Virus record (IMG/VR): IMGVR_UViG_3300009983_000002
Reading direction: 5' to 3' (one strand)
DNA length: 64,000 nucleotides
Origin: a virus
Taxonomy: Duplodnaviria > Heunggongvirae > Uroviricota > Caudoviricetes
Positions 21,785 to 51,405 of the stretch are shown here, piece by piece (position 1 is the first letter of the stretch; each line of letters starts with the position of its first letter). The translations under genes were made by a program, and so were the position numbers. Below the pieces are notes generated by a model. The model was given only the letters and a program-made list of their open reading frames with translations, was not told where the DNA came from and ran no database searches.

Positions 21785-21809
21785 GTTCCATAGAAAGGGG
21801 GAGGCGATC

Positions 21810-22483: not shown

Positions 22484-22569
22484 TGAAGCGTGAAGCCGCT
22501 CTCGTCCTCGCTTTCATTTTCTGCCTTTACGGGCTGCCGATTCTCGTCTATGGGCTGGGCCTGAAATGA
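22483..22569 (+). CDS. tiny hydrophobic peptide (28 aa)
   Basis: MKREAALVLAFIFCLYGLPILVYGLGLK. Translationally coupled at both ends (TGATG upstream, ATGA downstream). Confidence 0.3.
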   Translation: MKREAALVLAFIFCLYGLPILVYGLGLK

Positions 22570-38787: not shown

Positions 38788-38797
38788 GGAGAAGGAA

Positions 38798-39835: not shown

Positions 39836-40005
39836 TCGCCGACGATCTCGTCTTCAGGATGGAAGAGCGGGCGCGCATCCGGCGCCAAATCACGACGCGG
39901 AAGTCCGTTCAAGAAGGGAAGCCCGATAGGATCGCCGATCTCCTAGAAGAAGGCGCACGGGCAATTCGTGAGCTTCAGGGCAAAGAGCCTGCGTCGTCTG
40001 GGTGA
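39832..40005 (+). CDS. hypothetical small protein (GTG start)
   Basis: 58 aa; GTGA coupling. Last gene of plus block, converges on ligase gene. Confidence 0.3.
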   Translation: MIADDLVFRMEERARIRRQITTRKSVQEGKPDRIADLLEEGARAIRELQGKEPASSG

Positions 40006-40919
40006 CGCCACCCGAGCCACACGGGAATCCGTGGCTTCTCCTTAGAGCCTTCGCGCTGGAACTTATACTTCGCGAGCTTGCCCATGACCACGGCCTCGTT
40101 ACCGGCCATGATCTCATTCCAAATCGCGATACGTTCGTCTTCACTCCAGCCGTTGCCGAGCTTGAAGTGCTCTGCGGGCCAGCCGTGTAGGCGCACGACG
40201 ACGCCGCCCAGCATCCCCGCCTTCGTCTTCCCCGCTTTGTGCGTGCTGCGCTTCGCGTAGCCGCGTTCGTCGCGGGTCTGTTCGTTCTCGTTGTGCTCGC
40301 GTTCGTAGTAGCCGATGACTTCGCCTTCAGCGTCTTCGAAGGGCTTGAGCTTGATCAGAATCTGCTCTTTCTCCGTGCTGCGTCCAAACTTGTAGAGCGC
40401 TGCGGGGTCGCGGAGCATCAGGCCTTCGTAGCCGTCAGCGATATAAGCGTGCATCATTGCCTCCGCCTCTTCCCATGTGTAGACTGGGAAGTGCTGCACG
40501 AGTTGCACATGCGGGCCGATAGCCGCACACTTGTCGGCGGCGATGCTCAGGCGGTCGAGGTAGCTCAGGGTCGGGCGGTCGAAGTCATCGACGTAGTCGA
40601 AGACGTGGAAGACAACGCCATCGGCAACGGCATCGTGCGTGGAGAATGCGGACATCGTTGTCTGCATCGCATCTGCGGCGTTGCAGGGACCGGCGACGAT
40701 CTCGCCGTCGAGCCCTGAGAGTCGGGGGTCGGAGAAGAGGGCTGATAGGGCTGCGTTGGGTATGGGCTTCAGGGTCCGGGACAGGGCTTGGCCGTCCCTG
40801 ACGATCATGCGGATGCCGTCGAACTTCGGGCTCGCCCAGAAGGGAAAGCGTAGCGGGTGTTTCTCCCGGTCTGGGTGTTCGGCAAGGAGGGGCTTGAACC
40901 CCAGGACGCGCTTAGCCAC
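39975..40919 (-). CDS. ATP-dependent DNA ligase
   Basis: GTG start (SD GGAG 6 nt upstream); 315 aa. Motif I SPKFDGIRM (KxDGxR), motif IV GYEGLMLRD, motif V LIKLK. Confidence 0.8.
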   Translation of the reverse strand: MAKRVLGFKPLLAEHPDREKHPLRFPFWASPKFDGIRMIVRDGQALSRTLKPIPNAALSALFSDPRLSGLDGEIVAGPCNAADAMQTTMSAFSTHDAVADGVVFHVFDYVDDFDRPTLSYLDRLSIAADKCAAIGPHVQLVQHFPVYTWEEAEAMMHAYIADGYEGLMLRDPAALYKFGRSTEKEQILIKLKPFEDAEGEVIGYYEREHNENEQTRDERGYAKRSTHKAGKTKAGMLGGVVVRLHGWPAEHFKLGNGWSEDERIAIWNEIMAGNEAVVMGKLAKYKFQREGSKEKPRIPVWLGWRHPDDAGSLP

Positions 40920-41403
40920 CGGAACGCTCCCGGTAGCGTTGGAAGCGGCGGTCGGCGGCCTCCCGGCGGGCCCGGGCCATTGCCTCGTGGCCGGGGCTGG
41001 CGCGGCCCACGTCGGCGGCAGCGGGCGGCACAAGGGCCAGGACGCGATAGGAGGCGGCTAGGCAGCCGTGGCGCTCCAGGGCCAGCACGGTAAGGCCAGC
41101 GGCCTCGGTGAGCCTCCAGCCCGCCTCGTGAGCGGCAGCGGGGTCCATTTGCTCGATCCCCAGCACCACACGGCGGCCATCGCGGCGGGCGGCCAGGACC
41201 GGCGCCGCATAGACGCCCCATTGGCCGCCAAGGGCGAAGTATTGGTCGATGATCGGGGCCACGGCGGCGCAGTCGCCGCCAGCGGCTTCCCAGGCGATGG
41301 TGTCGGCGATGACATCCCCGACGCCGCCGGTCAGCGGCTGGGCTTGAACGGGGGTCGCCAGCAGGGCGGCCACGACGGCCAGGGTAAGGTTAAGACGGTT
41401 CAA
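40912..41403 (-). CDS. secreted protein (signal peptide)
   Basis: 163 aa; MNRLNLTLAVVAALLATPVQAQP is a classic signal peptide. Confidence 0.5.
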   Translation of the reverse strand: MNRLNLTLAVVAALLATPVQAQPLTGGVGDVIADTIAWEAAGGDCAAVAPIIDQYFALGGQWGVYAAPVLAARRDGRRVVLGIEQMDPAAAHEAGWRLTEAAGLTVLALERHGCLAASYRVLALVPPAAADVGRASPGHEAMARARREAADRRFQRYRERSGG

Positions 41404-41668
41404 ATTGGCGCTCCTTCACGCCACCCTCTGCAAATTCGACGCCGTAGCGTTCGGCGTAGATTTGACCGGCGAGTTCGCGCCCGGCGTCCGTGATGTCGAA
41501 GGTGGCGCGTGTCAGGAAGCCCCGACCGGCCAGGAATTGGGCGCATGTCATGAGGGCCGCGCCGTAGATCACGCCGCCCTTCTCCATCCCCGCAACGTCG
41601 AGAAGCACGTCCTCGTCATACTTCGTCATCTGCGCTTGCATCAGCGCTTCATGCAGCTTCTGCGACAT
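41390..41668 (-). CDS. hypothetical protein
   Basis: 92 aa. Confidence 0.4.
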   Translation of the reverse strand: MSQKLHEALMQAQMTKYDEDVLLDVAGMEKGGVIYGAALMTCAQFLAGRGFLTRATFDITDAGRELAGQIYAERYGVEFAEGGVKERQFEPS

Positions 41669-42911
41669 CGGTGTCCTGCTCTTTCTTGATCAAGATGCCT
41701 TGAATGGCGGCGGTGCTCATGGGGAGTTGCGGCGCGATCTCTTTGCGGAACGCTTCACGATCTCCCTCGGGGAAGAAACGGTCGAACATGCGGAGCGCGA
41801 TGTTGATGTCCTTGGCCTTGATATGGTCGAGGAAGTAGCTGCGGTCAACGCGGCCCGGACGCTTGAGTGCGGCGTCGAGTTTGTCGGCGTGGTTGCTGGT
41901 GATGAAGAGAATGCGGCCCTCTTGGGCGGCGATGCCGTCAATGGCGTTGAGGAAGCCCGACAACGTCAAGCCGCGTTCGGCCTTCTCTTTCTTGTCGCCC
42001 TTCTTCGCCGTCGCCGCTGCGGCGGTGCGTTCTTCGAGGATGGTGATGCTGTCGATGTCTTCGATCACGACGATCCCCGCGCCAGCGCTGTTGATCGCGT
42101 CCTGGAGGCTGTTGTCGTCGAGCAACGTCGCGGGGTTGATGATGTAGATCGGCTTGTTCAGAAGCGACGCGAGAGCGAAGATCAGCGAGGTCTTGCCGGT
42201 CCCCGGCGGGCCTTCGAGCATGTAGCCACGGCGCCACGGAATCCCACGGGCAGCATACCACTTGCGGCGGGTCAAGAACTTTTGGAGGTCGCGAACGATC
42301 TCGGCCTTCTGCGCCTCGTCCATGTAGATGGTGTCGAGTTCGCGCTTAGCGCGACGACCAGCGAGTTCGTAGTGTCCGCTCGACCAGAAGAAGACCGACA
42401 CCGTGTTTTGATCTTCGATGACAGACAGGGCTTCGTCCATGAGTCCGCGAAGCACAGATTGATCACGCCCCAGCGTCTGAATCGTGATCGTCTCGTTGCG
42501 CTTCACGAGCCACGAGTTGTCTTTGTCGCCTTGCTTCTCGATGTTGCGATGAATGAGAAAAGGGCGCTTGTTGTTGAAAATAATGTGGTGGCCTGGACCG
42601 GGGATCAGGCTGAACTTCTGTTGTTCGGTGGACTCGTCCCACTCGGAAGTCACGCTCAAGTTGCGGCTGCGGCGAGGGTTCATCTTCTTGCCCATCCACA
42701 CAGTGATGTAGCGATAGAAGTTGTCGTCGGCATAGACGGTCATCGTCAGCACGAATTGCGACTTGAACAAATTCCAGATATAGCCGGGGAGGGCGCGGCA
42801 CTGATAGCCGATGGCGCCGAGCACGGCGAGGACAAACATCCCGTGGCTGACTTCGCTGCCCAGGATCGCTTGAACTTGTTCTTGAACGAAGGGCAGGAGT
42901 TCGGGGATCAC
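41649..42911 (-). CDS. AAA+ ATPase, BCS1-like
   Basis: 420 aa; Walker A GPPGTGKTS, Walker B VVIEDIDS, arginine finger region KRPGRVD. Long N-terminal domain with one TM helix like BCS1. Confidence 0.75.
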   Translation of the reverse strand: MIPELLPFVQEQVQAILGSEVSHGMFVLAVLGAIGYQCRALPGYIWNLFKSQFVLTMTVYADDNFYRYITVWMGKKMNPRRSRNLSVTSEWDESTEQQKFSLIPGPGHHIIFNNKRPFLIHRNIEKQGDKDNSWLVKRNETITIQTLGRDQSVLRGLMDEALSVIEDQNTVSVFFWSSGHYELAGRRAKRELDTIYMDEAQKAEIVRDLQKFLTRRKWYAARGIPWRRGYMLEGPPGTGKTSLIFALASLLNKPIYIINPATLLDDNSLQDAINSAGAGIVVIEDIDSITILEERTAAAATAKKGDKKEKAERGLTLSGFLNAIDGIAAQEGRILFITSNHADKLDAALKRPGRVDRSYFLDHIKAKDINIALRMFDRFFPEGDREAFRKEIAPQLPMSTAAIQGILIKKEQDTDVAEAA

Positions 42912-43234
42912 CGCGTCGTAGCCTTTGCGTCGTGAATGAGTTTCAGGGCTGTTTCGATTTCTTCGAGGAAGCGGACGTTGTCGTTCTCTGTGGCGCGCGC
43001 AGCGGCTGCGAGAAGACGATGACTTGCTGCTGTTAGAGCGTTGGCGCTCATGGGGTGAATGTGATTCTTGTCGCGCTTCATGTAGAGCGTGAAGTGCGCG
43101 GCGTCGAAGACCTTCAGCGTTCCGCTAATGCGGACCTTGATCCAAGGCTGATCGTCTTTCACGCCGCGCCAGTCAATCTCTTCGACGACGTAGGCGTGTC
43201 CGATTTTCATTCCCGGCATGTGCTCGCCGAGCAT
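42908..43234 (-). CDS. hypothetical protein (start uncertain)
   Basis: Internal ATG chosen to avoid 137-nt overlap with the next gene. Confidence 0.3.
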   Translation of the reverse strand: MLGEHMPGMKIGHAYVVEEIDWRGVKDDQPWIKVRISGTLKVFDAAHFTLYMKRDKNHIHPMSANALTAASHRLLAAAARATENDNVRFLEEIETALKLIHDAKATTR

Positions 43235-43265
43235 TGCGAGGTCGCCGGGACGGAAGGGATGAATT

Positions 43266-43556
43266 TTAGTAGCCACGAGCTTTCCGCATCTTCTCAAGAT
43301 TTTTGTTGTGGCCGCTGCGTTCGTATTGCTCGCGCTTGCGTGCAAGCTTCTCTTGGCGACGGCGTTCTGCACGGGCATACTTCGGAGTGATGACGGTGTC
43401 AACCTGCGGAGTCACAACATCATCGACGACGGTAACGCGATCATCGTTCTTGTCGTCGTCTTCGACTTTTTCGAGCTTCGCGCCTGCGGCCATGAGCGCA
43501 GCCATCGCCAGCATCGCGGGGGCGCCGATCATCACGCGGCGTTTGTCGTTGATCAT
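43266..43556 (-). CDS. small membrane-anchored protein
   Basis: Start at Met35 of track ORF. N-terminal hydrophobic helix, Asp-rich middle, basic C-terminus. Confidence 0.4.
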   Translation of the reverse strand: MINDKRRVMIGAPAMLAMAALMAAGAKLEKVEDDDKNDDRVTVVDDVVTPQVDTVITPKYARAERRRQEKLARKREQYERSGHNKNLEKMRKARGY

Positions 43557-43954
43557 TTCTTCTCCTTCTCGGTTTCTTTGATCTCTTCGATCTCGCTGAC
43601 TTCGCGGACGAAGATCACACGCTCGACCGGGACATGGCCGAAGCCCCACGGGCTCCACGGCTTCTTCGCGGTCCCAAGGAATTCGCTGACCATGCCAACG
43701 TAGGCTTCGGTCTGGCCGACATCGTAGACCTGATCTTCGAGTCCGCCCTTCTCCAAGGTCCGCATCCTGACCTTGTGGCTGTAGTTGTTCTCCCCGTAGA
43801 CATCCAGGAACGTGAGTTCGAAGACGCGACCGACCTTGGCGTAGTTGGGGTCAATTTTGTTCGTCCCCTTCAGGGCGGGGACGCGCTTCTTTCCTGCGGC
43901 GGTTTTCTTTCCGTCAACGGAGGCGAGGCGCACGGCTGGCTTGGCTTGAGGCAT
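43553..43954 (-). CDS. hypothetical protein
   Basis: 133 aa. Confidence 0.4.
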   Translation of the reverse strand: MPQAKPAVRLASVDGKKTAAGKKRVPALKGTNKIDPNYAKVGRVFELTFLDVYGENNYSHKVRMRTLEKGGLEDQVYDVGQTEAYVGMVSEFLGTAKKPWSPWGFGHVPVERVIFVREVSEIEEIKETEKEKK

Positions 43955-43985
43955 CCGTCTTCACTATCACAGGGTTAAAAGGGCG

Positions 43986-44660
43986 TCAACGCTTTTCGGG
44001 GCGGGTCATGTAGGCTTCGAGGGCCTTTTTCAGGACCGGGGCCGTCTCGTCGTCGATGGCGATCATCTGGCGAACGACGCCGCCGGAGTTCGTGCCGATG
44101 AAGAGGAATCCCGAATCAGGAGGCAGCGCAAATTTCAGGTGTCCCCGGCCCTGGAGGTTCGCCTTGTCAGCGATCTCATACTCGCGGGCGGGCATCACGG
44201 CTTCGAGCCTTTGGGGGTAGAATTGCTCGACGAGTTCGATGAAGGCCTCGGCCAGCGGGGTCGCCCAATAGACGTTGGCCCCGTGAGCGCTGGTGTAGAC
44301 GTGGCCGCAGAGGCGATCCTCGGTGCCGTGGAGGGAGGTCGGGACGCCCTTGATGCGGGAGTATTGCATCATGTCCATCGACGCCCCGGTGCGTCCGAGT
44401 TGCGTGGCCGTGAACTTCGGGTCGGGCTCGCCGCCGCGCCGTGCGGCATGGGTGCGCTTGACCAATGTGTAGATCGACGCCAGCGCCGAATCAGTGATCG
44501 TGTGGGCCTTCACATACAGAAGGTGATCGAAGTGCGGAAGGCTGCTCTTGAAGCTGCCCTTCACCGTGTCCCACGGCGGTTGCTTCTTCCGGGAGTTCCA
44601 CGAACGCTTGCGTTGGGTTTGCATGGGGTGGGTTATTCCACCAAATCCAAATCGCGTCAA
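43986..44660 (-). CDS. hypothetical protein
   Basis: 224 aa. Confidence 0.4.
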   Translation of the reverse strand: MTRFGFGGITHPMQTQRKRSWNSRKKQPPWDTVKGSFKSSLPHFDHLLYVKAHTITDSALASIYTLVKRTHAARRGGEPDPKFTATQLGRTGASMDMMQYSRIKGVPTSLHGTEDRLCGHVYTSAHGANVYWATPLAEAFIELVEQFYPQRLEAVMPAREYEIADKANLQGRGHLKFALPPDSGFLFIGTNSGGVVRQMIAIDDETAPVLKKALEAYMTRPEKR

Positions 44661-44665
44661 GCATT

Positions 44666-44977
44666 TTATCGCACGTCTTCGGTGCTGCGGGTCACGCGGC
44701 GGCGCTGCCCCGGCCAGCTAACGGTGACGGTGCTGCTGCGGTGACGCACGATGTCGTCGGCGAGCGCCGTCAGCGAGGTCGCACGGCGGACCAGCATAGC
44801 GTGGAAGTAGCGGGCGCGGCTGCCGTTGGCGTCTTTGGGCTTGCGATACCGTGCGGCATCGGCGGCGGCGATGATCTTGTCCACGGTGCTCGAAGAGAGC
44901 GCGTGAAAGTCTTCTTGGCCGGTGAGCCCGATGGCACGGAGTTGGGCGCGGGCCGCTTCTGCGGAGAGCATTGGCAT
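44666..44977 (-). CDS. hypothetical protein
   Basis: 104 aa from Met100 of track ORF (upstream part is Arg/Pro-rich junk). TGATG coupling. Confidence 0.35.
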   Translation of the reverse strand: MPMLSAEAARAQLRAIGLTGQEDFHALSSSTVDKIIAAADAARYRKPKDANGSRARYFHAMLVRRATSLTALADDIVRHRSSTVTVSWPGQRRRVTRSTEDVR

Positions 44978-45315
44978 CAGAACCACTTCCTCAAACGATG
45001 ATCGAGAACGACGTGAACCCCGGCGTCGCGGGCGTCGCGGTGAAACCTGCGGGCCTCGCCTTCGGTGGCGAAGTAGAGCTTGCAGGGGAAGTCGGTCCCG
45101 GCTTCCGTCGTGCCGATCACAAACGGCGCCTGCGGATAGTAGAGCGCGTCCTTGATCAGGCACACGCCAGCGATGAAGCTCGCGATGCAGGCCAGGAAGC
45201 TCAGGGCCCCGACGTAGTAGAGGTCGCTGTAGATCAGCCAACCACCAGCGTGGAGGGGGACGGCGAGGGCGCACAAGGCGGCCCCCGCGAAGCCGATGGC
45301 GAGGCGCTTAATCAA
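44977..45315 (-). CDS. membrane protein (TTG start)
   Basis: Two TM helices (AIGFAGAALCALAVPL, SFLACIASFIAGVCLI). TTG overlapping upstream stop. Confidence 0.35.
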   Translation of the reverse strand: MIKRLAIGFAGAALCALAVPLHAGGWLIYSDLYYVGALSFLACIASFIAGVCLIKDALYYPQAPFVIGTTEAGTDFPCKLYFATEGEARRFHRDARDAGVHVVLDHRLRKWF

Positions 45316-46000
45316 GGCGTGACCCCGCGTAGGCGTTGATCCCGTGGCGCTTGAGGACCGCGACGAAAGCGGCGGCGCCAGCTTCTTTGATGTCAACACG
45401 CTGGCCGACATAGTCGCCGGGGTTCCAGAATTCCCAGCCCACGTCCCAGGCGCGTTCGCCGAAGGGGCGGGGATTGACGGCGTTCTTCGCGGCCTTCTTC
45501 AGATAGGCAACGAAGGGGCCCTGGGCTTTCGGAAGACGGGCCCAGGCGAACCCGCAAGCGCCGACGTGATCGACTGGGCCCGGGCCTTTGTGAGCGGCGA
45601 CGATGGCCTGACACGCGGCTTGTGCGGCGGCCTTGGCTTCGACGAAGATCGCAGCGTAGTCGCGATTGTCTTCGACCTTCGGGGCACGCGGCTTCTTCGC
45701 CGCGACGGGCTTGATGGGGAACGCGAACTTGGTCTGCGTGGCGATGTAGTTGTAGACCGGCGCGAGTTCGTCGCCGTAGAGGCCGACCGCGACCTTCCGG
45801 TAGCTCTTGGGGATGCCGATATGGAACGACTTCGACCAACGCGGCTGGATGCGGCTGACCTTCGCGGGCACGCCGTTGGTCTCTCTCACGAAGACACGGT
45901 AAATGCGGCGCGCATAGTTACTCTCGGCGCCGACATCGAGTTCGATGTCGAAGACGGTGAAGCCCGTGATATTCGTGCGCTTGAGTTCAGTAACGTCCAT
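45308..46000 (-). CDS. hypothetical protein
   Basis: 230 aa from Met14 (SD AAGGAG 6 nt upstream). Confidence 0.45.
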   Translation of the reverse strand: MDVTELKRTNITGFTVFDIELDVGAESNYARRIYRVFVRETNGVPAKVSRIQPRWSKSFHIGIPKSYRKVAVGLYGDELAPVYNYIATQTKFAFPIKPVAAKKPRAPKVEDNRDYAAIFVEAKAAAQAACQAIVAAHKGPGPVDHVGACGFAWARLPKAQGPFVAYLKKAAKNAVNPRPFGERAWDVGWEFWNPGDYVGQRVDIKEAGAAAFVAVLKRHGINAYAGSRLD

Positions 46001-46063
46001 GTGGGTCTCCTTTGATGGAGAGACCATAGCACATTCCATACCGGGCGCAAGCGCTTTTCGTGG

Positions 46064-46603
46064 TTAAGACGAGAAGCGCATCCGCTGGGATTTCGGCAGC
46101 GTGCCGTCATTGGGGATGAAGGGCTCGACGACGAGTTCGCCGCTGTTCATCAGGGTCACGATGACGTAGGACGAAGAGGGGTTGCCCCGGTCGCTGACGG
46201 CGGTGCGGCACCAGTTGTAGGCCTGCCAGGGATGACCGAAGATGCCGCAGTAGTTGAGCTTGCCGTAGTCGGCGCAGAAGTCGCCGAGGATCACGGCGCT
46301 CGCCGTGACGCCGAAACTGTCATGACCTTCGCGTTCGAAGACGCCGGTCTTCGCGCAATCGCTCAAGTGCTTGCCGACCTGGAGAACGGTGTTCGTGAAT
46401 TCGAACTTGCGGACCACGCCTTCCTTGCGTTCGGTGATGGCCTTTTGTTCGGCCTTCTGGTGAAGTAGTTCGGTCTGGCCCAGCTTCTCCTTCAACTCCG
46501 CGATTTGATCGTGAAGAAGTTCGTTCTTGTGTTCGGCGTAATGCCGCTTGCCTTCCTCTTCTTCGAGAAGAGCCTGAAGATCAGCTTTTGTTTGGCGGGG
46601 CAT
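46064..46603 (-). CDS. hypothetical protein with coiled-coil N-terminus and Cys/His-rich C-terminus
   Basis: 179 aa from Met37 (SD AAGGAAAAG). EGHDSFGVTASAVILGDFCADYG could be a degenerate metallophosphoesterase-like segment. Confidence 0.35.
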   Translation of the reverse strand: MPRQTKADLQALLEEEEGKRHYAEHKNELLHDQIAELKEKLGQTELLHQKAEQKAITERKEGVVRKFEFTNTVLQVGKHLSDCAKTGVFEREGHDSFGVTASAVILGDFCADYGKLNYCGIFGHPWQAYNWCRTAVSDRGNPSSSYVIVTLMNSGELVVEPFIPNDGTLPKSQRMRFSS

Positions 46604-46740
46604 CTTGCTTTTCCTTCTTCTCATAATGAGCGATGGCGTGTTCGTAGCGCCCGGGATACAGGTGGCCGTCAACGTAGACGTGCGAGGACTTTCCGTCCCT
46701 ATACTCTTCAATCCTCACGCCGTCAACGGTCTTGAAGCGA

Positions 46741-46845
46741 TTAAGAGCGGCCACGGTTCCTCCACCACGCGATGATGGCGTCGTCCCAGCGCAGCGCCCA
46801 GCCCGTCACCAGCAACAGGATGATGATCCCCGGAAGCGCGCTCAT
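46741..46845 (-). CDS. tiny TM peptide (34 aa)
   Basis: MSALPGIIILLLVTGWALRWDDAIIAWWRNRGRS; ATGA coupling to upstream gene. Confidence 0.25.
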   Translation of the reverse strand: MSALPGIIILLLVTGWALRWDDAIIAWWRNRGRS

Positions 46846-47192
46846 GGCCGATACCCATACACGTCTGGGACTTTGTAGACGAGTTCGTTGTTGAGTTCAG
46901 TGCGGTCGATCCGCGTCTCCTTCATCCCGCCCTTCTCGTGGTCGGGTTCATGAAGCGTCGCGTAATTGCTGGGCCATGAGGACGCCGACTCTTCGCGTCC
47001 GCAGACTAGGCAGATGCGGCGGGGCGGGTAGTAGCATCCGCCGCCGCGATACGGCTGTTCAGCGACGTGGGGGTGCGTGCATTCCTCTTGGATTTCAGCG
47101 ACGACGTTGGCTTTGCTCTCTTCGGCTTTCTCGATCCGCTTCTGAGCGAGCTTGATCCTGCGGTGAGCGAATTGATGGAGGTCAGCGGGCAT
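46842..47192 (-). CDS. Zn-ribbon protein
   Basis: 116 aa from internal Met. CTHPHV...CYYPPRRICLVCGRE. Confidence 0.4.
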   Translation of the reverse strand: MPADLHQFAHRRIKLAQKRIEKAEESKANVVAEIQEECTHPHVAEQPYRGGGCYYPPRRICLVCGREESASSWPSNYATLHEPDHEKGGMKETRIDRTELNNELVYKVPDVYGYRP

Positions 47193-47565
47193 CGGCGAGG
47201 CTCTTCGTGATCTGATCGGCAATGTGTCGCGCCAAGTCGGCATCGTAGATGTCGTAGGTCTTGTAGTCGAGTTCGTCACGCCCGCGATTGGTGACGAAGC
47301 CTCCGCCGATGACTTCGCTGACTTCGTAGTGCCGAAAGCTGCGGAGTTCGGTGACGCGCCACGCGGAACCCCCGTGTATTTCGACGATGCTCTCATAGCG
47401 CTTGAACCGGCCCTTGGCGCGCTCGCGGCGCTTGTCCATGCGTGCGCGCTCGCGGTTGGCCTTGGGGTCGCCGCCCGGCGGGCCCAAGATGTCGAAGCTC
47501 TTGGCGACGCCGAACACGTCGTCAAAGTCTCCGTGGCGCCAGTTGATGCGATCCCTCACGGCCAA
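47182..47565 (-). CDS. hypothetical protein
   Basis: 127 aa. Confidence 0.4.
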   Translation of the reverse strand: MAVRDRINWRHGDFDDVFGVAKSFDILGPPGGDPKANRERARMDKRRERAKGRFKRYESIVEIHGGSAWRVTELRSFRHYEVSEVIGGGFVTNRGRDELDYKTYDIYDADLARHIADQITKSLADAR

Positions 47566-48101
47566 ACCTCATACCAGAATTTGACAAGCCCGTCCTTCTT
47601 CTCGTCGAAGATCGCGATGATGTCAACCGCACAGTTCTGGCGTTCGATCTTCTTCGAGAGCTTGCGGATGGTTTTGCCCGTCCATATCGCGGTGTCGATG
47701 ACGAGGACGGTGCCGTTGATCCTGTCGAAGTTCTCGGCAGTCGGAGGGATGTAGGGGACGTGTAGAAAGTGCGACGCATATACTGCGGCTACTGCACCGC
47801 TACGTCCAGGACCCGTCACTGCCGCGTATTGTCCGTGTAGGAGCTTCAGCCTATCGGCTAGGGCAGTGCGGAATTCCGTCTCTTCGACGACACGCCACTT
47901 GCGGTTCGGGGTCTCGACGACGCTGGGGATGCCTGGATTTGCACGCATGATCCCTTCCCACGCGCCTGGGGGAAGGATATTTGGGTTCGCATCAGCGCGT
48001 TTCGAACCCTTGCGCCGCTCCGTGCCGCCGCAAGTGCATTCGTGGTCGTATTGATCGACATGCCATTCGCAGTCGATGGTATGATCGGACACATACGTCA
48101 T
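47556..48101 (-). CDS. phosphoribosyltransferase-domain protein
   Basis: 181 aa; GTVLVIDTAIWTGKTIRKL matches the type I PRT PRPP-binding motif (hydrophobic-D-D/T-x-x-x-TG-x-T). N-terminal CxxxH...CTCGG cluster. Confidence 0.5.
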   Translation of the reverse strand: MTYVSDHTIDCEWHVDQYDHECTCGGTERRKGSKRADANPNILPPGAWEGIMRANPGIPSVVETPNRKWRVVEETEFRTALADRLKLLHGQYAAVTGPGRSGAVAAVYASHFLHVPYIPPTAENFDRINGTVLVIDTAIWTGKTIRKLSKKIERQNCAVDIIAIFDEKKDGLVKFWYEVWP

Positions 48102-48643
48102 GAGGTTACGATAGGAGGCTCCCCTCCCTGCTGATACAGCGGCTGTCCGTCTTCAGGAGCGACGGGGAACGGCCATAGCGTGCGGCCATAGGCCTTGGCT
48201 ATCAAGTCGTGCGCCTCTGCTAGCGCGCGATAGCGGCAGCCCACCATGTGATAGTGGGGCTCCGGGCTCTTCGTCGAGCAAGTGCATGAGCCGACGCTGG
48301 CGAGCGTGATCTGCATGAGAACCGCATCGACCTTCTCGATCTCTTCGGCCTTGATTCGCGCTTGAATGGCTTCCAGCCACTCGATGTCTTCGTCGGGATG
48401 ATTACACAGGCGATATTCCTGCGCGACCGCGCCCTGTTCGTGGAGATGGGCGACGATCTCGCCGCGTTGGATGTCGCGCGTCGTGGCGACGGGGATGAAG
48501 ATCACGCGGGCGATCATGATCACCGTGGCGATGACGCCGCAGACGACGGCGATCATCGGCGCGTAGTAGATGCTGTCCTCCAGCACCCGGCCACACGCCA
48601 AAGCCATCTGCATTGTATCGCCGAGTCCCATCAGTATCCCCAA
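48098..48643 (-). CDS. membrane protein with Cys cluster
   Basis: 181 aa; two N-terminal TM helices. CTCSTK...HYHMVGC. Confidence 0.4.
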   Translation of the reverse strand: MGILMGLGDTMQMALACGRVLEDSIYYAPMIAVVCGVIATVIMIARVIFIPVATTRDIQRGEIVAHLHEQGAVAQEYRLCNHPDEDIEWLEAIQARIKAEEIEKVDAVLMQITLASVGSCTCSTKSPEPHYHMVGCRYRALAEAHDLIAKAYGRTLWPFPVAPEDGQPLYQQGGEPPIVTS

Positions 48644-49164
48644 AGCATAAGCGGATTGTCGTTGCGGATGCTTTCAAGATGCGGAGGAAGCACGCGCTTA
48701 TCAAAGCCGTGCGTGATCAAGTGCTCTCCGTTCTTGGTCGCATAGTGATAGCTTGCCGTTCCCGCTGGAAGCAAGCGCATGATCTCCGGCGCTTCGCCGT
48801 TATCGCAATCGAAGAGCCAGAGCTTCGCGCCAGCGGCGCGGCTCGTGGGCTGCATCAATGCGGATTCCCAGCGGCGTTCAAGGCGCTCCCAGAAGAGAGG
48901 GTCGCCGCCGTGATCGGCTTCGACAATCGCCATCTTGAAGTGCTTCGCGGCGGCGTTGAGGTCGCGGGCTTCGGCGCTCCCATAGATGCGTTCGTTCGGT
49001 GCCGCCATGTCGCGGAGTTCGCGGAGCGCACGATCATGTGCTGCGATGTCGTGCGTGATCTTCGTGATCGTCCTTTGCTTTTCGATGCCGTCCTTGTAGC
49101 GCCCCTTCAAGAAAAGGACTCGGGTCCCTTCTTGGAAGGCCGGAGAGTGATTGAGTAAGTTCAC
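48631..49164 (-). CDS. hypothetical protein (GTG start)
   Basis: 177 aa; GTGA coupling with SD GAAGG. Confidence 0.35.
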   Translation of the reverse strand: MNLLNHSPAFQEGTRVLFLKGRYKDGIEKQRTITKITHDIAAHDRALRELRDMAAPNERIYGSAEARDLNAAAKHFKMAIVEADHGGDPLFWERLERRWESALMQPTSRAAGAKLWLFDCDNGEAPEIMRLLPAGTASYHYATKNGEHLITHGFDKRVLPPHLESIRNDNPLMLWGY

Positions 49165-49592
49165 AGAAGCACCTTCAATTCCGAGAGCCACGGCGGCGCA
49201 TCTTCGCGACGGATGGGGCCAATCCCCAGGCACGTCACAGTGGGTTCGGGAAACACGGTGCGGCCCGCATCCTTCACCAGAGAGTGAGGGAGCCCGGCTT
49301 TCTCGCACAGAATCTTCATGGCTTCAAGGTGGTCGGCATTGGGAGCCATGACCGCGATCTTCACGGCGACGCCGCTGTATTTGTATTCCATCGCCGCAGC
49401 GGGATGGCTTTCTTCTGCGGCCCAGAACGTGTGAAGGAATGCGTGGCCCGCCTGGGCCAGCATCTTCCCGCGATTGCCGCCGCAGGCCTTGATGGCTTCC
49501 ATGCTGACAACGGCGTAGAGCCGCAGTTCACTCGCCACAGAAGTAGCTCCGACCTTGCGGTGCTTCTCGATGTTCAGCGTTACACTCGGCAT
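49161..49592 (-). CDS. peptidyl-tRNA hydrolase, PTH2 family-like
   Basis: GGNRGKMLAQAGHAFL parallels the PTH2 GKIAAQCSHA motif. Start at ATG 49592 (SD GGAGAAGG) or alternatively Met at about 49502, which gives the archaeal-size 113-aa form. Confidence 0.5.
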   Translation of the reverse strand: MPSVTLNIEKHRKVGATSVASELRLYAVVSMEAIKACGGNRGKMLAQAGHAFLHTFWAAEESHPAAAMEYKYSGVAVKIAVMAPNADHLEAMKILCEKAGLPHSLVKDAGRTVFPEPTVTCLGIGPIRREDAPPWLSELKVLL

Positions 49593-49722
49593 CGAACCTT
49601 GCCTTCTCCCAGGCACGGAAGTTCTTGGGTTCCGTGTGATCGTAGGGATTGTCTTCAGCGGTGAGCCCGGCGCGGCCATCGGCCTTGCCTTTGCGCTTCG
49701 CGTCTTTCACGCTGTCTGGCAT
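49528..49722 (-). CDS. hypothetical small protein
   Basis: 64 aa, good GC3. Overlaps the long form of the PTH2 gene. Confidence 0.3.
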   Translation of the reverse strand: MPDSVKDAKRKGKADGRAGLTAEDNPYDHTEPKNFRAWEKARFDAECNAEHREAPQGRSYFCGE

Positions 49723-49961
49723 TGCGGTCGTGCTCCCCAGTTGGCGTAGTCGGCGACAAAATGGTCGCGGGCGTCTTCGTCGGTGAACCCGTAGATAACA
49801 TCATTGCTGATGTCTTCGCAATAGAAAACTTCACCGTAGGCATCATGCTTCACCGTCGTCGGGCTCACAAGCCGCGTCAGGAATGCACGATACGGAAATT
49901 TCTTGATGATGGCGTCGAGGGTCGCCGCGTGGCTCAAATCGCGCTGGGTATATTGCTTCAC
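49707..49961 (-). CDS. hypothetical protein
   Basis: 84 aa. Confidence 0.4.
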   Translation of the reverse strand: MKQYTQRDLSHAATLDAIIKKFPYRAFLTRLVSPTTVKHDAYGEVFYCEDISNDVIYGFTDEDARDHFVADYANWGARPQCQTA

Positions 49962-50028: not shown

Positions 50029-51405
50029 TCAGGCCGACTTGTCGGTCTGGGTGGCCGCCGGAGCGTTGGTGTTCACGCCCAGACGGGCGAGAGCCGCAGC
50101 ACCTGCGTCGGTGTTGGCGAAGCCTTCGAGCAGCGCGCCGAAGGCGAGACCGCCCTTGGAGCCCAGCAAGTCGCCGATGCTCGCGATGCCCGAGGCCGCG
50201 TCGCCGGAGTTGGCGATGACCTTGATGTTCGCGGCTTCGAGCGCGCCAGCGTTCGCGATGCCGACAGCTTGCGCCGCCTTCACTTTCTCGATGCTGACGA
50301 GATAGGCTTGGTATTCCGGCAGAGCCGCGATCTTCTCGGCGAGAGTGATCTGGGCTTCGACCGGCGCCAAGAGCAGCAGACGTTGCGCGTCGGCAGTGGC
50401 GACACCGTTGACCTGGGTCGCTTCGGCCTTGCGCTTTTCTTGTTCCAGCACGCCTTCGGCGGTCAGGATCGTCTTTTGCTTTTCGCCTTCAGCGAAGATG
50501 ATGTCGGTCGCTTTGACCTGATCGGCTTCGACGATGGCGGCGTTCTTCGCGATTTCGGCCTTGCGTTGGGTCTCGACGCCGAGAACATCCATTTCGCGCT
50601 CTTTCGTCACGCGGGCTTGCGCCTGGATTTCTTGCTTCGAGACTTCGTTCGCGATGCCGACCGCTTGCAGTTGTTGAGCTTGGCGCTCGCCGACCGCTTG
50701 CTTCGCTTGTTCGTTGCGAAGATCAACTTCTTGCTTCGCCGCAATTTCTGCGGTTTCGGCAGCCTGCCGGTTCTTCGCGACTTCGAGACGCGATTCCATG
50801 TCGATATGGCTGATCTTCTTCGCCATGATGTTGGCGATGACCTTCGAGCCATCGGCGTCGCGGATGTCCATGAGTTCCAGGTTCTTCACGGGCTCGACGC
50901 CCCAGTTCTGGAGTTCAGTGCGGACTTCGTTGGTGAAGGCATCGCCGAAGGTTGAGCGGTCGCCCATGATCTTCGAGATTTCTTCGTTCGCCAGAATTTT
51001 ACGCACCGCGCCCTGCACGACGGCCTGAAGTTGTTGCTTCAGTTCGTTGAAGTTGGCGACGCGCTTGGCGGCGACGTTGGTGTCGGCGATGCGGAAGAAC
51101 GCGACGAGGTCGAGTTCAAACGGCACGCGATCTTTGTCATACGCTTTGTAAGCGTGCAGCGAAAGATCGAAGTTGTTCACCGGCAGTTCGATGACGGTCA
51201 CGCCGAAGATCGGAATGAACGACGGGATTTTGTAGTAGACGTTGCCATCCGGCATGTTCGCGCCGTATGACGTGGTCTTCCGCGCCGACTGCACGATATG
51301 CACGGTGTTGGTTTCGACGACCACGCGCCACGCGAAGGCGAGGAACAGGCCGACGATGACGAGCAGAGCGAGCACGCCAACAACGATGGGGATCAAGAGG
51401 TCCAT
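50029..51405 (-). CDS. SPFH/Band-7 (flotillin/prohibitin-like) membrane protein
   Basis: 458 aa; N-terminal TM helix, SPFH-like core, then very long Ala/Glu/Gln/Lys-rich coiled-coil (AEIAAKQEVDLRNEQAKQAVGERQAQQLQ...). Confidence 0.7.
   Translation of the reverse strand: MDLLIPIVVGVLALLVIVGLFLAFAWRVVVETNTVHIVQSARKTTSYGANMPDGNVYYKIPSFIPIFGVTVIELPVNNFDLSLHAYKAYDKDRVPFELDLVAFFRIADTNVAAKRVANFNELKQQLQAVVQGAVRKILANEEISKIMGDRSTFGDAFTNEVRTELQNWGVEPVKNLELMDIRDADGSKVIANIMAKKISHIDMESRLEVAKNRQAAETAEIAAKQEVDLRNEQAKQAVGERQAQQLQAVGIANEVSKQEIQAQARVTKEREMDVLGVETQRKAEIAKNAAIVEADQVKATDIIFAEGEKQKTILTAEGVLEQEKRKAEATQVNGVATADAQRLLLLAPVEAQITLAEKIAALPEYQAYLVSIEKVKAAQAVGIANAGALEAANIKVIANSGDAASGIASIGDLLGSKGGLAFGALLEGFANTDAGAAALARLGVNTNAPAATQTDKSA

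What the first reader, a model, noticed from the sequence alone, without database searches (positions are those of the whole stretch)
41390..49961. Accessory island with a BCS1-like AAA ATPase, a PRTase-domain protein, Cys-rich membrane proteins and a PTH2-like protein: candidate undescribed anti-defence or defence module
This 8.5-kb minus-strand stretch contains none of the expected structural genes. Instead it encodes enzymes typical of immune conflict systems, plus several Zn-ribbon and secreted proteins, all tightly coupled (overlapping starts and stops):
- A BCS1-like AAA ATPase; AAA ATPases of this kind are common effectors or chaperones in defence operons.
- A phosphoribosyltransferase domain, as in PRTase-containing defence or anti-defence proteins.
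- A PTH2-like hydrolase.

The combination is not a module I can name and may be novel.
Basis: inference. Interest (0 to 1): 0.6.

Follow-up and report, generated by a model that had tools for sequence, protein, structure and literature searches.

The report
Mosaic accessory stretch of a phage
This 8.5-kb stretch is an ordinary, fast-changing block of optional phage genes rather than one new immune module, but its BCS1-type ATPase turns out to have bacterial relatives that sit in RNA-repair and ribosome-rescue operons, which gives a testable idea of what it does.

Summary
The genes are real. The stretch holds 20 tightly packed minus-strand genes. They include a full-length BCS1-type AAA+ ATPase (41649-42911), a PTH2 peptidyl-tRNA hydrolase (49161-49538) and a protein with a PRTase fold that lacks canonical catalytic features (47556-48101). 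The other 17 have no assignable family.

It is not a bounded island or a conserved module:
- It is the middle of a 16-kb co-directional array (56199 to 39975), with no boundary signals.
- It lies in a variable arm that the closest isolate phage (Microcystis phage Mwe-JY26) lacks entirely.
- The three marker genes have independent distributions: 190, 57 and 2 phage records. They are usually far apart or alone elsewhere.
- PADLOC gives only generic AAA hits.
- Phage BCS1 and PTH2 were already described by Iyer et al. 2021.

The unexpected result is in Rhodobacterales chromosomes. In 4 of 8 loci examined there, the BCS1-like ATPase is the third, translationally coupled gene of an rtcB-prfH ribosome rescue and repair operon; a fifth locus holds a decayed version. 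The papers I could read call that operon two-gene. The window also encodes a split PNKP, Rnl1 and a second RNA ligase.

My best reading is that the ATPase and PTH2 belong to the phage's translation-repair (counter-ribotoxin) toolkit, and the rest is unrelated accessory cargo. This is inference; confidence is 0.45.

The parts
41649..42911 (-). BCS1-type AAA+ ATPase, 420 aa. It has an N-terminal hydrophobic anchor, a BCS1_N domain, an AAA module (GPPGTGKT; IEDID; RPGRVD) and a BCS1 lid.
   Evidence: Pfam. phrog_7485 at 8.6e-97, full length. Yeast Bcs1 6sh3 at E 3.6e-52. Hydrophobic 19-mer at residues 16-34. Found in 190 phage records.
49161..49538 (-). PTH2-family peptidyl-tRNA hydrolase, 125 aa. 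The GK...AQ..HA and DAG.T motifs are kept.
   Evidence: Pfam PTH2 1.1e-19. phrog_11824 at 5e-26. Alignment to 2zv3 and 1q7s. Found in 57 phage records, mostly phiCbK-like.
47556..48101 (-). PRTase-fold protein, 181 aa. A disordered Cys/His N-terminal extension (about 1-45) precedes a core of about 110 aa. The core belongs to a widespread family of small phage and prophage proteins with invariant VTGPGRSGA.AAV.ASH ... IDT..TG.T ... FWYE.
   Evidence: 325 homologues, mostly 105-135 aa. Alignment A1. AlphaFold pLDDT 83 overall, core above 93. Foldseek top hits are all type I PRTases. Pfam is sub-threshold. hhalign places IDT..TG.T on IDDLVDTGGT of the XGPRT sequence.
41390..41668 (-). 92-aa protein that overlaps the end of the ATPase gene. 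It is the only neighbour retained next to the ATPase in the close relatives L005 (48% identity) and L006 (42%).
   Evidence: A profile built from the three copies finds nothing in Brevundimonas, Caulobacter, Shewanella or Erythrobacter phage loci. In L005 this gene and the next lie in a stretch with no DNA-level match, between flanks that are 91% and 83% identical.
42908..43276 (-). 122-aa His-rich protein whose stop overlaps the ATPase start. No family found.
   Evidence: Not found upstream of the ATPase in L006 or other phages.
48098..48631 (-). 177-aa protein with one predicted membrane helix (residues 27-45) and 6 Cys. L006 conserves only the C-terminal CxC...H.H...C patch, not the helix.
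46842..47192 (-). 116-aa protein with a CxxC motif (possible zinc ribbon). Its L006 homologue is 57% identical but lies elsewhere and on the opposite strand relative to the ATPase.
45308..46000 (-). 230-aa protein. The C-terminal 115 aa form a conserved phage-only domain (GACGFAW...WNPG...GSRLD); the N-terminal half is unassigned.
   Evidence: phrog_22149 at 4.6e-9. 6 hits including the query itself. Alignment A3. Model pLDDT about 80-95 for the C-terminal domain only. No PDB match with E below 1. BFVD matches are all uncharacterised phage proteins.
49528..49722 (-). 64-aa basic protein with a weak, sub-threshold resemblance to CrpP-related proteins. A homologue is present in L006.
   Evidence: NCBIfam CrpP_rel_fam E 0.017, 15 bits against a cut-off of 35. 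L006 hit.
43986..44624 (-). 212-aa orphan protein.
   Evidence: Only 3 hits, the query itself included, among 1.84 billion representatives. No Pfam, PHROG, PADLOC or NCBIfam hit.
44977..45315 (-). 112-aa protein with two hydrophobic segments and 4 Cys.
   Evidence: No family.
43266..43556 (-). 96-aa protein with an N-terminal hydrophobic segment (signal or anchor) and a charged tail.
   Evidence: No family.
46064..46603 (-). 179-aa protein with a charged, possibly coiled-coil N-terminal half (judged by eye) and 4 Cys. Weak homologue in L006.
47182..47559 (-). 125-aa protein. Its homologue in L006 lies about 700 bases downstream of the PRTase-like gene.
48631..49164 (-). 177-aa protein with no family. 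Its start overlaps the PTH2 stop.
38567..39835 (+). Outside the finding: RNA ligase of Pfam family PF09414, convergent with the array and 1.8 kb from the ATPase. L006 keeps the same pairing, 3.4 kb apart.
   Evidence: Pfam 4.2e-11. L006 homologue 51% identical. The same Pfam family occurs in the bacterial operons of L044 and L047.
21660..24300 (+). Outside the finding: a T4-style RNA-repair set. HAD_PNKP phosphatase at 21660-22247, Rnl1 ligase at 22566-23804 and an AAA_33 kinase at 23797-24300.
   Evidence: Pfam 3.1e-40, 2.3e-28 and 2.2e-19.
39975..40919 (-). Outside the finding: ATP-dependent DNA ligase, the last gene of the same co-directional array.
   Evidence: Pfam DNA_ligase_A_M and OB. 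Gene calls.
50029..51405 (-). Outside the finding: SPFH/Band-7 (flotillin-like) membrane protein, the next gene upstream of the stretch.
   Evidence: Pfam Band_7 6.3e-17. N-terminal hydrophobic segment at residues 3-21. Six larger neighbouring proteins from five other phage ATPase loci gave no Band_7 hit.

Best explanation
**What the stretch is (shown).** It is not one machine. It is the middle of a 16-kb leftward gene array in the variable, non-structural arm of a siphophage of roughly 100-150 kb. The phage belongs to the TerL clade of Microcystis phage Mwe-JY26, Roseobacter phage DSS3P8, Sphingobium phage Lacusarx and Erythrobacter phage L02. Seventeen of its 20 genes are lineage-specific with no assignable family. 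The three recognisable genes were acquired independently.

**What two of the genes probably do (inferred).** The BCS1-type AAA+ ATPase and PTH2 most plausibly serve the phage's translation-repair toolkit. The split PNKP, Rnl1 and PF09414 RNA ligase encoded elsewhere in the window would belong to the same toolkit. The proposed sequence is:
1. A host ribotoxin (anticodon nuclease or rRNase) cuts tRNA or rRNA, and ribosomes stall.
2. PTH2 hydrolyses the trapped or dropped-off peptidyl-tRNA. This is the step PrfH performs in bacterial rtcB-prfH systems.
3. The kinase-phosphatase and the ligases heal and reseal the cut RNA.
4. The membrane-anchored ATPase supplies ATP-driven remodelling or extraction. 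The nature of this step is unknown. It could resemble the way the AAA+ Cdc48 partners the release-factor-like hydrolase Vms1 in eukaryotic ribosome quality control.

**Third recognisable gene.** The PRTase-fold protein is a separate, stand-alone gene found among small uncharacterised phage genes. It is more likely a PRPP or nucleotide binder than a canonical phosphoribosyltransferase.
For: **Shown: mosaic, accessory nature**
- The window is colinear with Mwe-JY26 at 2-21.8 kb, 26-28.4 kb and 57-59.7 kb. None of the 26 array proteins tested has a homologue there.
- L006 shares about 7 genes, one of them relocated.
- The marker genes have independent distributions.
- The 25 genome loci with the ATPase share no other gene of the array.

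**Shown: the bacterial operon**
- In Rhodobacterales chromosomes the BCS1_N+AAA+lid protein directly follows RtcB and a PrfH-like protein of about 210 aa with a GGQ motif, in L024, L044, L046 and L048. The stop and start overlap by 4 nt in three of these four.
- A decayed version is present in L047.
- L044 and L047 add a PF09414 RNA ligase, an HD/AAA_33 kinase, RtcR and Ro60.
- Sources. Counting L047, that is 5 of 8 loci examined.
- The papers on rtcB-prfH that I could read call it a two-gene operon and mention no ATPase.

**Shown: repair genes in the window and related phages**
- The window encodes HAD_PNKP, Rnl1, an AAA_33 kinase and a PF09414 ligase.
- PTH2 is 4.7 kb from RtcB in the phiCbK-like genomes where I compared coordinates.
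- The ATPase and RtcB are 6.6-19 kb apart in 12 phages of 150-357 kb.
- Erythrobacter phage L02 has a PTH2-like gene 3.8 kb from its ATPase.
- PTH2 keeps its conserved motifs.

**From the literature**
- PrfH rescues and RtcB2 repairs colicin-E3-damaged ribosomes (PMC9304027).
- Phage PTH2 was proposed for ribosome rescue (PMC7824862).
Against: - In the window the ATPase and PTH2 are 6.3 kb apart, with 15 unrelated genes between them. The window has no RtcB and no PrfH.
- Three of 8 bacterial loci have the ATPase without RtcB-PrfH. One of them (L045) sits between Tn7-like genes and a QatABCD defence system.
- In Brevundimonas phages Kikimora and Gurke the ATPase and PTH2 are 45-46 kb apart; in Salicola phage SCTP-2 they are more than 160 kb apart. 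Most PTH2 phages lack the ATPase.
- The 12 phages with short ATPase-RtcB distances represent only about 4 lineages. Linkage within one genomic arm is weak evidence.
- Salmonella phage 7t3, Pseudomonas phage PS119XW and Shewanella phage KASIA show no annotated RNA-repair gene within 8-10 kb of the ATPase. Pseudomonas phage Psa21 has RtcB but no ATPase within 20 kb.
- The window ATPase is only about 30-32% identical to the bacterial operon copies, so the function may differ.
- A membrane anchor has no obvious role in ribosome rescue.
Confidence: 0.45

Rival explanations
1. Null reading: the genes have no functional link. The ATPase works as BCS1 does in mitochondria, moving or inserting a folded phage protein across or into the inner membrane (for example one of the small membrane proteins encoded nearby, or a superinfection-exclusion factor). 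PTH2 is a general translation helper. Their proximity is a by-product of all optional genes being packed into one arm.
For: - Full-length similarity to Bcs1, including the membrane anchor.
- Four genes of the stretch encode proteins with hydrophobic segments, besides the ATPase's own anchor, and a membrane-anchored SPFH protein lies just upstream.
- No neighbour is conserved with the ATPase across phage lineages.
- In Salmonella phage 7t3 and Pseudomonas phage PS119XW the ATPase sits among small genes annotated only as hypothetical.
- Three of 8 bacterial loci are stand-alone.
Against: - It does not explain why the ATPase is translationally coupled to rtcB-prfH in 4 of 8 Rhodobacterales loci, with a decayed copy in a fifth.
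- No candidate client protein is conserved. The membrane helix of 48098-48631 is absent from the L006 homologue.
Confidence: 0.3
2. Morphogenesis chaperone (the proposal of Iyer et al. [quoted passage not shown]
For: - Proposed in PMC7824862.
- The gene is widespread in large phages: 190 records, mostly above 200 kb.
- Some records annotate it as a chaperone.
Against: - It is absent from Mwe-JY26. At E 1e-15 it was also not found in the other TerL-clade relatives listed apart from L02, XM05 and RXM.
- In every locus inspected it lies in non-structural gene arrays.
- Chromosomal bacterial orthologues sit in RNA-repair operons with no phage context.
Confidence: 0.1
3. One reading: the whole stretch, or a large part of it (ATPase, PRTase-like protein, PTH2, and membrane or zinc proteins), is one new multi-gene defence or anti-defence system.
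For: - The genes are tightly packed and co-directional.
- The genes turn over rapidly, and there is a divergent cassette next to the ATPase in a close relative.
- The PRTase-like family recurs among small uncharacterised genes in diverse phages and prophages.
- One bacterial ATPase copy lies beside a QatABCD and Abi_2 island.
Against: - The components do not co-occur elsewhere. Xanthomonas phage RTH11 has the ATPase and the PRTase-like gene 150 kb apart. PTH2 and the ATPase are mostly in different phages.
- PADLOC finds no specific hit.
- Gene order is not kept even in L006.
- Tight packing is the rule throughout this window and in the related phage genomes examined.
Confidence: 0.07

Closest known systems
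Mitochondrial Bcs1 / BCS1L (AAA+ translocase of the folded Rieske protein)
   Same: Same three-part architecture: N-terminal membrane anchor, BCS1_N domain, and AAA module with BCS1-type lid. E 3.6e-52 to yeast Bcs1 over residues 48-410. Walker A, Walker B, sensor and arginine motifs are intact.
   Different: It is encoded by a phage, and no Rieske-like client was found. The one Cys/His membrane protein nearby loses its helix and its CxH motif in the L006 homologue. Bacterial relatives are wired to rtcB-prfH rather than to respiratory-complex genes. Heptamer formation and translocation are untested.
Bacterial rtcB2-prfH ribosome rescue and repair operon (E. coli ATCC 25922; PMC9304027, PMC9223846)
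   Same: The functional theme matches: a peptidyl-tRNA hydrolase plus an RNA ligase that restore translation after ribotoxin damage. Rhodobacterales versions carry a BCS1-like ATPase as the third gene.
   Different: The window has neither RtcB nor PrfH. The analogous activities would come from unrelated folds (PTH2; Rnl1 and the PF09414 ligase with PNKP). These genes are scattered over 28 kb on both strands and are not an operon.
Phage T4 Pnkp/Rnl1 tRNA repair against the PrrC anticodon nuclease
   Same: The window has a HAD_PNKP phosphatase, a P-loop kinase and an Rnl1-family ligase clustered at 21.6-24.3 kb. This is the classic counter-defence RNA-repair set.
   Different: The kinase and phosphatase are separate genes. 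That cluster lies 17-20 kb from the stretch under study. T4 has no BCS1-like ATPase or PTH2 (from my own knowledge).
Phage BCS1 and PTH2 genes catalogued by Iyer et al. 2021 (PMC7824862)
   Same: The same two families in large phages. PTH2 is interpreted there as ribosome rescue coupled to tRNA repair.
   Different: That paper assigns BCS1 to membrane-proximal virion assembly and does not link it to RNA repair. The present phage is probably below the jumbo size class: its closest TerL relatives are 101-152 kb.
Type I phosphoribosyltransferases (XGPRT, HGXPRT, APRT, OPRT)
   Same: The Rossmann-like core fold, the glycine-rich loop after the first strand and the hydrophobic-D-x-x-x-x-TG-x-T PRPP loop are shared. 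All top Foldseek hits are PRTases.
   Different: The core is only about 110 aa. The segment that carries the flexible loop and hood in XGPRT is absent. The second acidic residue of the PRPP loop is an invariant Thr. The position of the XGPRT catalytic Asp is not conserved. Pfam is below threshold.
Vms1-Cdc48 in eukaryotic ribosome quality control (analogy only)
   Same: A release-factor-like peptidyl-tRNA hydrolase is paired with a classical-clade AAA+ ATPase (PMC6514570). The bacterial prfH + BCS1-like pair has the same logic.
   Different: No homology is claimed between the hydrolases or between the partnerships. This is purely an inferred parallel.

Membership tests
BCS1 family of AAA+ ATPases | BCS1_N domain upstream of a single AAA module | tested here: met
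   Pfam BCS1_N 1e-25 (91 bits against a cut-off of 28), covering profile positions 1-182 of 182. AAA 9e-16.
BCS1 family of AAA+ ATPases | BCS1-type lid after the AAA core | tested here: inconclusive
   AAA_lid_BCS1 scores 26.5 bits against a cut-off of 27. The alignment to 6sh3 runs through this region.
BCS1 family of AAA+ ATPases | N-terminal membrane anchor | tested here: met
   Hydrophobic 19-mer at residues 16-34. An equivalent segment is present in 11 other phage and bacterial copies examined. This is a hydropathy scan only.
BCS1 family of AAA+ ATPases | Intact ATPase motifs (Walker A and B, sensor 1, arginine fingers) | tested here: met
   GPPGTGKT, VVIEDID, TSNH and RPGRVD are read directly from the translation. 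They are invariant in alignment A2.
BCS1 family of AAA+ ATPases | Heptameric ring that translocates a folded client across a membrane | not testable with these tools
   Needs biochemistry or cryo-EM.
PTH2 peptidyl-tRNA hydrolases | Match to the PTH2 profile above the curated threshold | tested here: met
   71.2 bits against a cut-off of 23.
PTH2 peptidyl-tRNA hydrolases | Conserved Lys of the GKGK...AQ..HA motif and Asp/Thr of the DAG.T motif (residues reported as important for Pth2 catalysis; from my own knowledge) | tested here: met
   The query reads RGKMLAQAGHA and VKDAGRT, aligned to the same motifs of 2zv3 and 1q7s.
PTH2 peptidyl-tRNA hydrolases | Hydrolysis of peptidyl-tRNA | not testable with these tools
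   Needs an enzymatic assay.
Type I phosphoribosyltransferases | PRTase core fold | tested here: met
   All 50 listed Foldseek PDB hits are PRTases or PRTase-related proteins, probability 1.0, best E 6.6e-6. The model core has pLDDT above 93.
Type I phosphoribosyltransferases | Pfam Pribosyltran match above threshold | tested here: not met
   15.2 bits against a cut-off of 26.3, E 0.014.
Type I phosphoribosyltransferases | PRPP loop with two adjacent acidic residues | tested here: not met
   The loop is invariant Asp-Thr (D136-T137) across 35 family members.
Type I phosphoribosyltransferases | Flexible catalytic loop and hood that bind the base | tested here: not met
   Family members are about 105-135 aa. 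About 13 residues lie between the first helix and the PRPP strand, where XGPRT has about 28 (my reading of the sequences).
Known anti-phage defence systems (PADLOC-DB v2) | Specific match of any component to a defence-system model | tested here: not met
   Only generic AAA hits were found: IetA 4.7e-10 at 37 bits, TRIP13 and others. Nine other proteins (eight from the stretch plus the flanking SPFH protein) gave no hit. Ten small proteins of the stretch were not scanned. No anti-defence HMM library was available.
rtcB-prfH RNA-repair and ribosome-rescue operon | RtcB ligase and PrfH release-factor homologue encoded together | tested here: not met
   tblastn of the bacterial RtcB and PrfH-like proteins against the window gives no hit at E below 1. 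Only the ATPase is shared.
Genomic island (horizontally acquired block with boundaries) | Compositional shift, flanking repeats, or a tRNA or integrase gene at the edges | tested here: not met
   GC is 0.58-0.64 here against 0.57-0.635 elsewhere. No flanking repeats. No tRNA genes. Gene orientation continues on both sides.

The most novel reading that the evidence does not exclude
BCS1-type AAA+ ATPases of bacteria and phages may be a previously unrecognised third component of RNA-damage ribosome-rescue systems. In Rhodobacterales the operon is rtcB-prfH-bcs1. In this phage an equivalent set would be assembled from PTH2, PNKP and the Rnl1 and PF09414 ligases. The membrane-anchored ATPase would clear or remodel stalled translation complexes, as a prokaryotic counterpart of the Vms1-Cdc48 pairing. 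The phage version would act as a counter-defence against host ribotoxins. Separately, the small PRTase-core family of about 110 aa could be a new class of phage nucleotide- or PRPP-binding proteins.
Probability: 0.3. Interest if true: 0.7.

Novelty: new member of a known kind. Interest (0 to 1): 0.35.

Why it matters
As a defence-module candidate the stretch does not hold up, and two of its three marker genes are already catalogued in large phages. What makes it worth a note is a side result.

No function has ever been shown for the many phage and bacterial BCS1-like ATPases, and the only published guess is virion assembly. Finding the bacterial copies translationally coupled to rtcB-prfH, a system proven to rescue and repair toxin-damaged ribosomes, gives a concrete alternative that is cheap to test. 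It would also add a component to an operon described as having two genes.

If the link holds, phage copies next to PTH2 and RNA ligases would count as counter-defence genes. The highly conserved mini-PRTase family, spread over many phage types, is a second uncharacterised target.

Tried and rejected
- **DNA-level search.** Megablast of the stretch against 50,697 phage records found no match.
- **Synteny with Brevundimonas phage Kabachok and Caulobacter phage CcrColossus.** Within 12 kb either side of the ATPase, only the ATPase is shared. One gene outside the stretch (52768-53385) shows loose synteny.
- **SPFH as a partner of the ATPase, by analogy with FtsH-HflK/C.** Six larger neighbouring proteins from five other phage ATPase loci have no Band_7 domain. 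The window's SPFH protein has no match in the 25 genome loci or the first six phage loci. Rejected.
- **The 92-aa downstream gene as a universal partner.** A profile search finds it only in the close relatives L005 and L006. Rejected.
- **A Rieske-like client.** The membrane and Cys/His protein 48098-48631 looked like a possible BCS1 client. The L006 homologue keeps only a CxC...H.H...C patch and lacks both the helix and the CxH motif. Rejected.
- **Link to the Ter system** (TelA, TerD and PRTases near BCS1 in CcrColossus). The larger flanking ORFs I scanned gave no Ter-related hit, and the PRTase-like family occurs without Ter genes. Not supported.
- **Structure-based annotation of 45308-46000.** Only the C-terminal domain folds confidently. 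There is no PDB match; BFVD matches are uncharacterised phage proteins.
- **Deep searches of two unknowns.** These gave 6 and 3 hits, the query itself included, so no alignments useful for modelling.
- **Non-coding features.** Rfam, tRNA, repeat and promoter/terminator scans found nothing above background.
- **ATPase next to RtcB in unrelated jumbo phages.** Ralstonia phage RP12 has only a weak AAA-like ORF 6 kb from RtcB. Pseudomonas phage Psa21 has none within 20 kb. Inconclusive.
- **Literature gap.** Burroughs and Aravind 2016 (NAR, RNA repair systems) is not in the library. I cannot exclude that the rtcB-prfH-AAA link is listed there.

Full report
**1. What the window is**

The window is about 60% GC and carries a phage replication and nucleotide module. 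That module includes ThyX, a dNMP kinase, SF1 helicases, a family A DNA polymerase, an SNF2 helicase, a DUF5906 primase-helicase, two RNA ligases and an ATP-dependent DNA ligase. A large terminase lies at 58028-59695.

The exact ATPase protein occurs on an 84.9-kb metagenome contig (ENA ERZ27279440 k141_33558), whose gene calls I used. The closest terminases belong to siphophages of 101-152 kb: Microcystis phage Mwe-JY26 (54% identity), Roseobacter phage DSS3P8 and its relatives, Sphingobium phage Lacusarx, and Erythrobacter phages L02 and XM05. The phage is therefore large but probably not jumbo.

**2. Check of the observation**

Frame-specific GC3 and the contig's gene calls give 20 minus-strand genes in 41390-49961, most with overlapping or abutting stops and starts.

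*The BCS1-like ATPase (41649-42911) is confirmed.*
- Pfam gives BCS1_N 1e-25 and AAA 9e-16; the BCS1 lid is just under threshold.
- It matches phrog_7485 over its full length at 8.6e-97.
- It matches yeast Bcs1 (6sh3) at E 3.6e-52 over residues 48-410.
- It has an N-terminal hydrophobic anchor and intact ATPase motifs.

*PTH2 (49161-49538) is confirmed.*
- Pfam gives 71 bits against a cut-off of 23.
- The conserved GK...AQ..HA and DAG.T motifs are present in the alignment to solved Pth2 structures.

*The 'PRTase domain' (47556-48101) is confirmed at fold level only.*
- It fails Pfam, with E 0.014 and 15 bits against a cut-off of 26.3.
- It has 325 homologues, mostly proteins of 105-135 aa, with an invariant signature: VTGPGRSGA.AAV.ASH ... 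IDT..TG.T ... FWYE.
- The AlphaFold model has core pLDDT above 93, and all its top Foldseek PDB hits are type I PRTases.
- The family departs from canonical PRTases in three ways. It lacks the segment that carries the flexible loop and hood in XGPRT. It has Thr in place of the second acidic residue of the PRPP loop. It does not conserve the position of the XGPRT catalytic Asp. I therefore treat it as a PRTase-fold protein, probably not a canonical transferase.

*The remaining claims are overstated.* There are two proteins with hydrophobic segments and 3.4-3.6% Cys, one CxxC protein, and one or two N-terminal hydrophobic segments.

**3. It is not a bounded island**

The co-directional array runs from a CoiA-like nuclease (55405-56199), through an SPFH/Band-7 protein (50029-51405) and the 20 genes, to the DNA ligase (39975-40919). 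Several tests for boundaries came back empty:
- Promoter- and terminator-like sites are no more frequent than in shuffled sequence.
- There are no flanking repeats.
- There are no Rfam RNA families and no tRNA genes.
- GC is close to the rest of the window.

Structural genes are not expected here. In the colinear Mwe-JY26 they follow the terminase.

**4. It is accessory and mosaic**

- tblastx shows the window colinear with Mwe-JY26 at 2-21.8 kb, 26-28.4 kb and 57-59.7 kb. Essentially nothing between 28.4 and 57 kb matches. None of the 26 array proteins tested has a homologue there at E 0.01 or better.
- L006, a 132.7-kb IMG/VR relative, has an ATPase 62% identical to the window's. It keeps the PRTase-like gene (51% identity) and about five more genes. 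The CxxC gene sits elsewhere in L006, on the other strand.
- In the close relative L005 the ATPase and ligase flanks are 91% and 83% identical in DNA. The two small genes between them have no DNA-level match and only 48% and 37% protein identity.
- Two unknowns searched deeply returned 6 and 3 hits, the query itself included.

**5. The three marker genes do not travel together**

- The ATPase is found in 190 phage records across many genera.
- PTH2 is found in 57 records, mostly phiCbK-like Caulobacter phages that lack the ATPase.
- The PRTase-like gene is found in 2 isolate phages.
- Phages with both the ATPase and PTH2 keep them far apart: 45-46 kb in Brevundimonas phages Kikimora and Gurke, and more than 160 kb in Salicola phage SCTP-2. 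The exception is Erythrobacter phage L02, with 3.8 kb.
- Xanthomonas phage RTH11 has the ATPase and the PRTase-like gene 150 kb apart.
- The PRTase-like family turns up in prophages and in phages of 56 kb and 261 kb and on other phage-like contigs, among small genes without family hits and with no constant neighbour.
- PADLOC gives only generic AAA similarity.
- Within the terminase clade, only L02, XM05 and Citromicrobium phage RXM carry the ATPase. It is therefore not a core morphogenesis gene.

**6. The unexpected lead**

A scan of one genome per species found full-length ATPase relatives mainly on MAG contigs. None of these loci shared any other gene of the array.

One locus was different. 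On a 194-kb Tateyamaria contig flanked by ordinary cellular genes, the ATPase is the third gene of an overlapping RtcB, RF-1-domain, ATPase operon. A search with that protein showed that BCS1_N+AAA+lid proteins are common chromosomal genes of Rhodobacterales.

Across eight such loci:
- Four have RtcB-PrfH-ATPase (L024, L044, L046, L048). The PrfH-like proteins are about 210 aa with a GGQ motif and the SG.GP.EC N-terminus. The stop and start overlap by 4 nt in three of the four.
- One (L047) has a decayed version.
- Two of these loci (L044, L047) add a PF09414 RNA ligase, an HD/AAA_33 kinase, RtcR and Ro60.
- Three lack the operon. One of them (L045) lies beside Tn7-like genes and a QatABCD and Abi_2 island.

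Sources.

PrfH and RtcB2 are experimentally shown to rescue and repair colicin-E3-damaged ribosomes (PMC9304027, PMC9223846). The papers I could read describe a two-gene operon and list other accessory genes, but no AAA+ ATPase. The 2016 survey of RNA-repair systems is not held in the library, so prior description cannot be excluded.

**7. Relevance to the window**

The window encodes a T4-style repair set: a HAD_PNKP phosphatase (21660-22247), Rnl1 (22566-23804) and an AAA_33 kinase (23797-24300). It also encodes a PF09414 RNA ligase (38567-39835), 1.8 kb from the ATPase. L006 keeps this pairing at 3.4 kb. Mwe-JY26 has no match to the Rnl1, kinase, PF09414 ligase, PTH2 or ATPase genes.

In the phiCbK-like genomes where I compared coordinates, PTH2 is 4.7 kb from RtcB. 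In twelve Brevundimonas, Caulobacter and Erythrobacter phages of 150-357 kb, the ATPase and RtcB are 6.6-19 kb apart.

These phages are related, representing about four lineages, and their optional genes cluster in one arm. The phage-side evidence is therefore only suggestive. Other phages weaken it further:
- Salmonella phage 7t3, Pseudomonas phage PS119XW and Shewanella phage KASIA show no annotated repair gene near the ATPase.
- Pseudomonas phage Psa21 has RtcB without the ATPase nearby.

**8. Verdict**

*Shown:* the gene content; the accessory and mosaic nature of the stretch; the independent distributions of the marker genes; and the bacterial rtcB-prfH-ATPase operon.

*Inferred:* that the phage ATPase and PTH2 work with the phage's RNA ligases and PNKP to keep translation running under ribotoxin attack; and that the PRTase-fold protein is a separate ligand-binding gene.

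A narrower counter-defence role for two of the 20 genes is plausible.

As a finding about this window it is a new member of known kinds and of modest interest. The lead on BCS1-like ATPases in RNA-repair operons is the part worth following.

Noticed in passing
L024 6200-9212; L044 1985-10579; L046 3196-7224; L048 3242-6251; L047 3007-9578: In Rhodobacterales chromosomes a BCS1-like AAA+ ATPase is the third, translationally coupled gene of rtcB-prfH operons. Some loci add a PF09414 RNA ligase, an HD/AAA_33 kinase, RlaP, RtcR and Ro60. The papers I could read on rtcB-prfH describe a two-gene operon.
   Followed up: partly
window 21660-24300 (+): A split T4-like RNA-repair set: HAD_PNKP phosphatase, Rnl1 ligase and AAA_33 kinase as three separate genes. 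Next to it is a short integrase-family protein of 212 aa (21106-21744).
   Followed up: partly
window 2000-21800, 26000-28400 and 57000-59700, against PP438418 (L017, L018): The window is colinear with Microcystis phage Mwe-JY26 in the replication module and the terminase. The roughly 29 kb between them is completely different. In Mwe-JY26 that space holds about 60 small plus-strand genes annotated as hypothetical.
   Followed up: yes
window 40921-41596, against L005 1411-2093: In a close relative whose flanks are 83-91% identical in DNA, the two small genes between the ATPase and the DNA ligase are replaced by divergent versions (48% and 37% protein identity, no DNA-level match). These are a 92-aa protein and a 163-aa protein with an N-terminal hydrophobic stretch that looks like a signal peptide. 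This is a local hypervariable cassette.
   Followed up: partly
window 50029-51405 (-): A flotillin-like SPFH/Band-7 protein of 458 aa with an N-terminal membrane anchor and a long Ala/Gln/Glu-rich region. It lies just upstream of the stretch. Six larger proteins encoded beside the ATPase in five other phages gave no Band_7 hit.
   Followed up: partly
window 52768-53385 (-): A 205-aa CxxC protein with homologues 5-7 kb upstream of the ATPase in Caulobacter phage CcrColossus (gp226) and Brevundimonas phages Bajun and Kabachok. Apart from the ATPase, it is the only gene of the array I tested that matched in those loci.
   Followed up: no
window 55405-56199 (-): A CoiA-like nuclease (CoiA_N plus CoiA_nuc domains) is the first gene of the leftward array, next to the divergent intergenic region at 56200-56870.
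   Followed up: no
window 43986-44624 (-), residues 67-119; P0129: A 53-residue segment of this orphan protein matches 14 repeated stretches of a 2281-aa metagenomic protein (P0129).
   Followed up: no
L045 7706-13224: In Paracoccus methylarcula the BCS1-like ATPase stands alone after a 74-aa gene. It lies between Tn7-like TniQ/TniB genes and a QatABCD system (KAP NTPase, QatB, QueC-like, TatD) plus Abi_2, which is a mobile defence-island context.
   Followed up: no
L013 12969-17200 (Erythrobacter phage L02); L050 21140-26338 (Ralstonia phage RP12): NAD-salvage genes lie beside RNA-repair genes in other phages. In L02, an NMN adenylyltransferase/Nudix protein and a nicotinate PRTase follow the PTH2-like gene. 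In RP12, a PRPP synthetase and a nicotinate PRTase lie between RtcB and an RNA ligase.
   Followed up: no
window 29792-30277 (+) and 32126-32935 (+): A YspA/SLOG-family domain protein (E 7.6e-11) and a weak, sub-threshold C-5 cytosine methyltransferase match (E 6e-4) lie in the plus-strand part of the variable arm.
   Followed up: no
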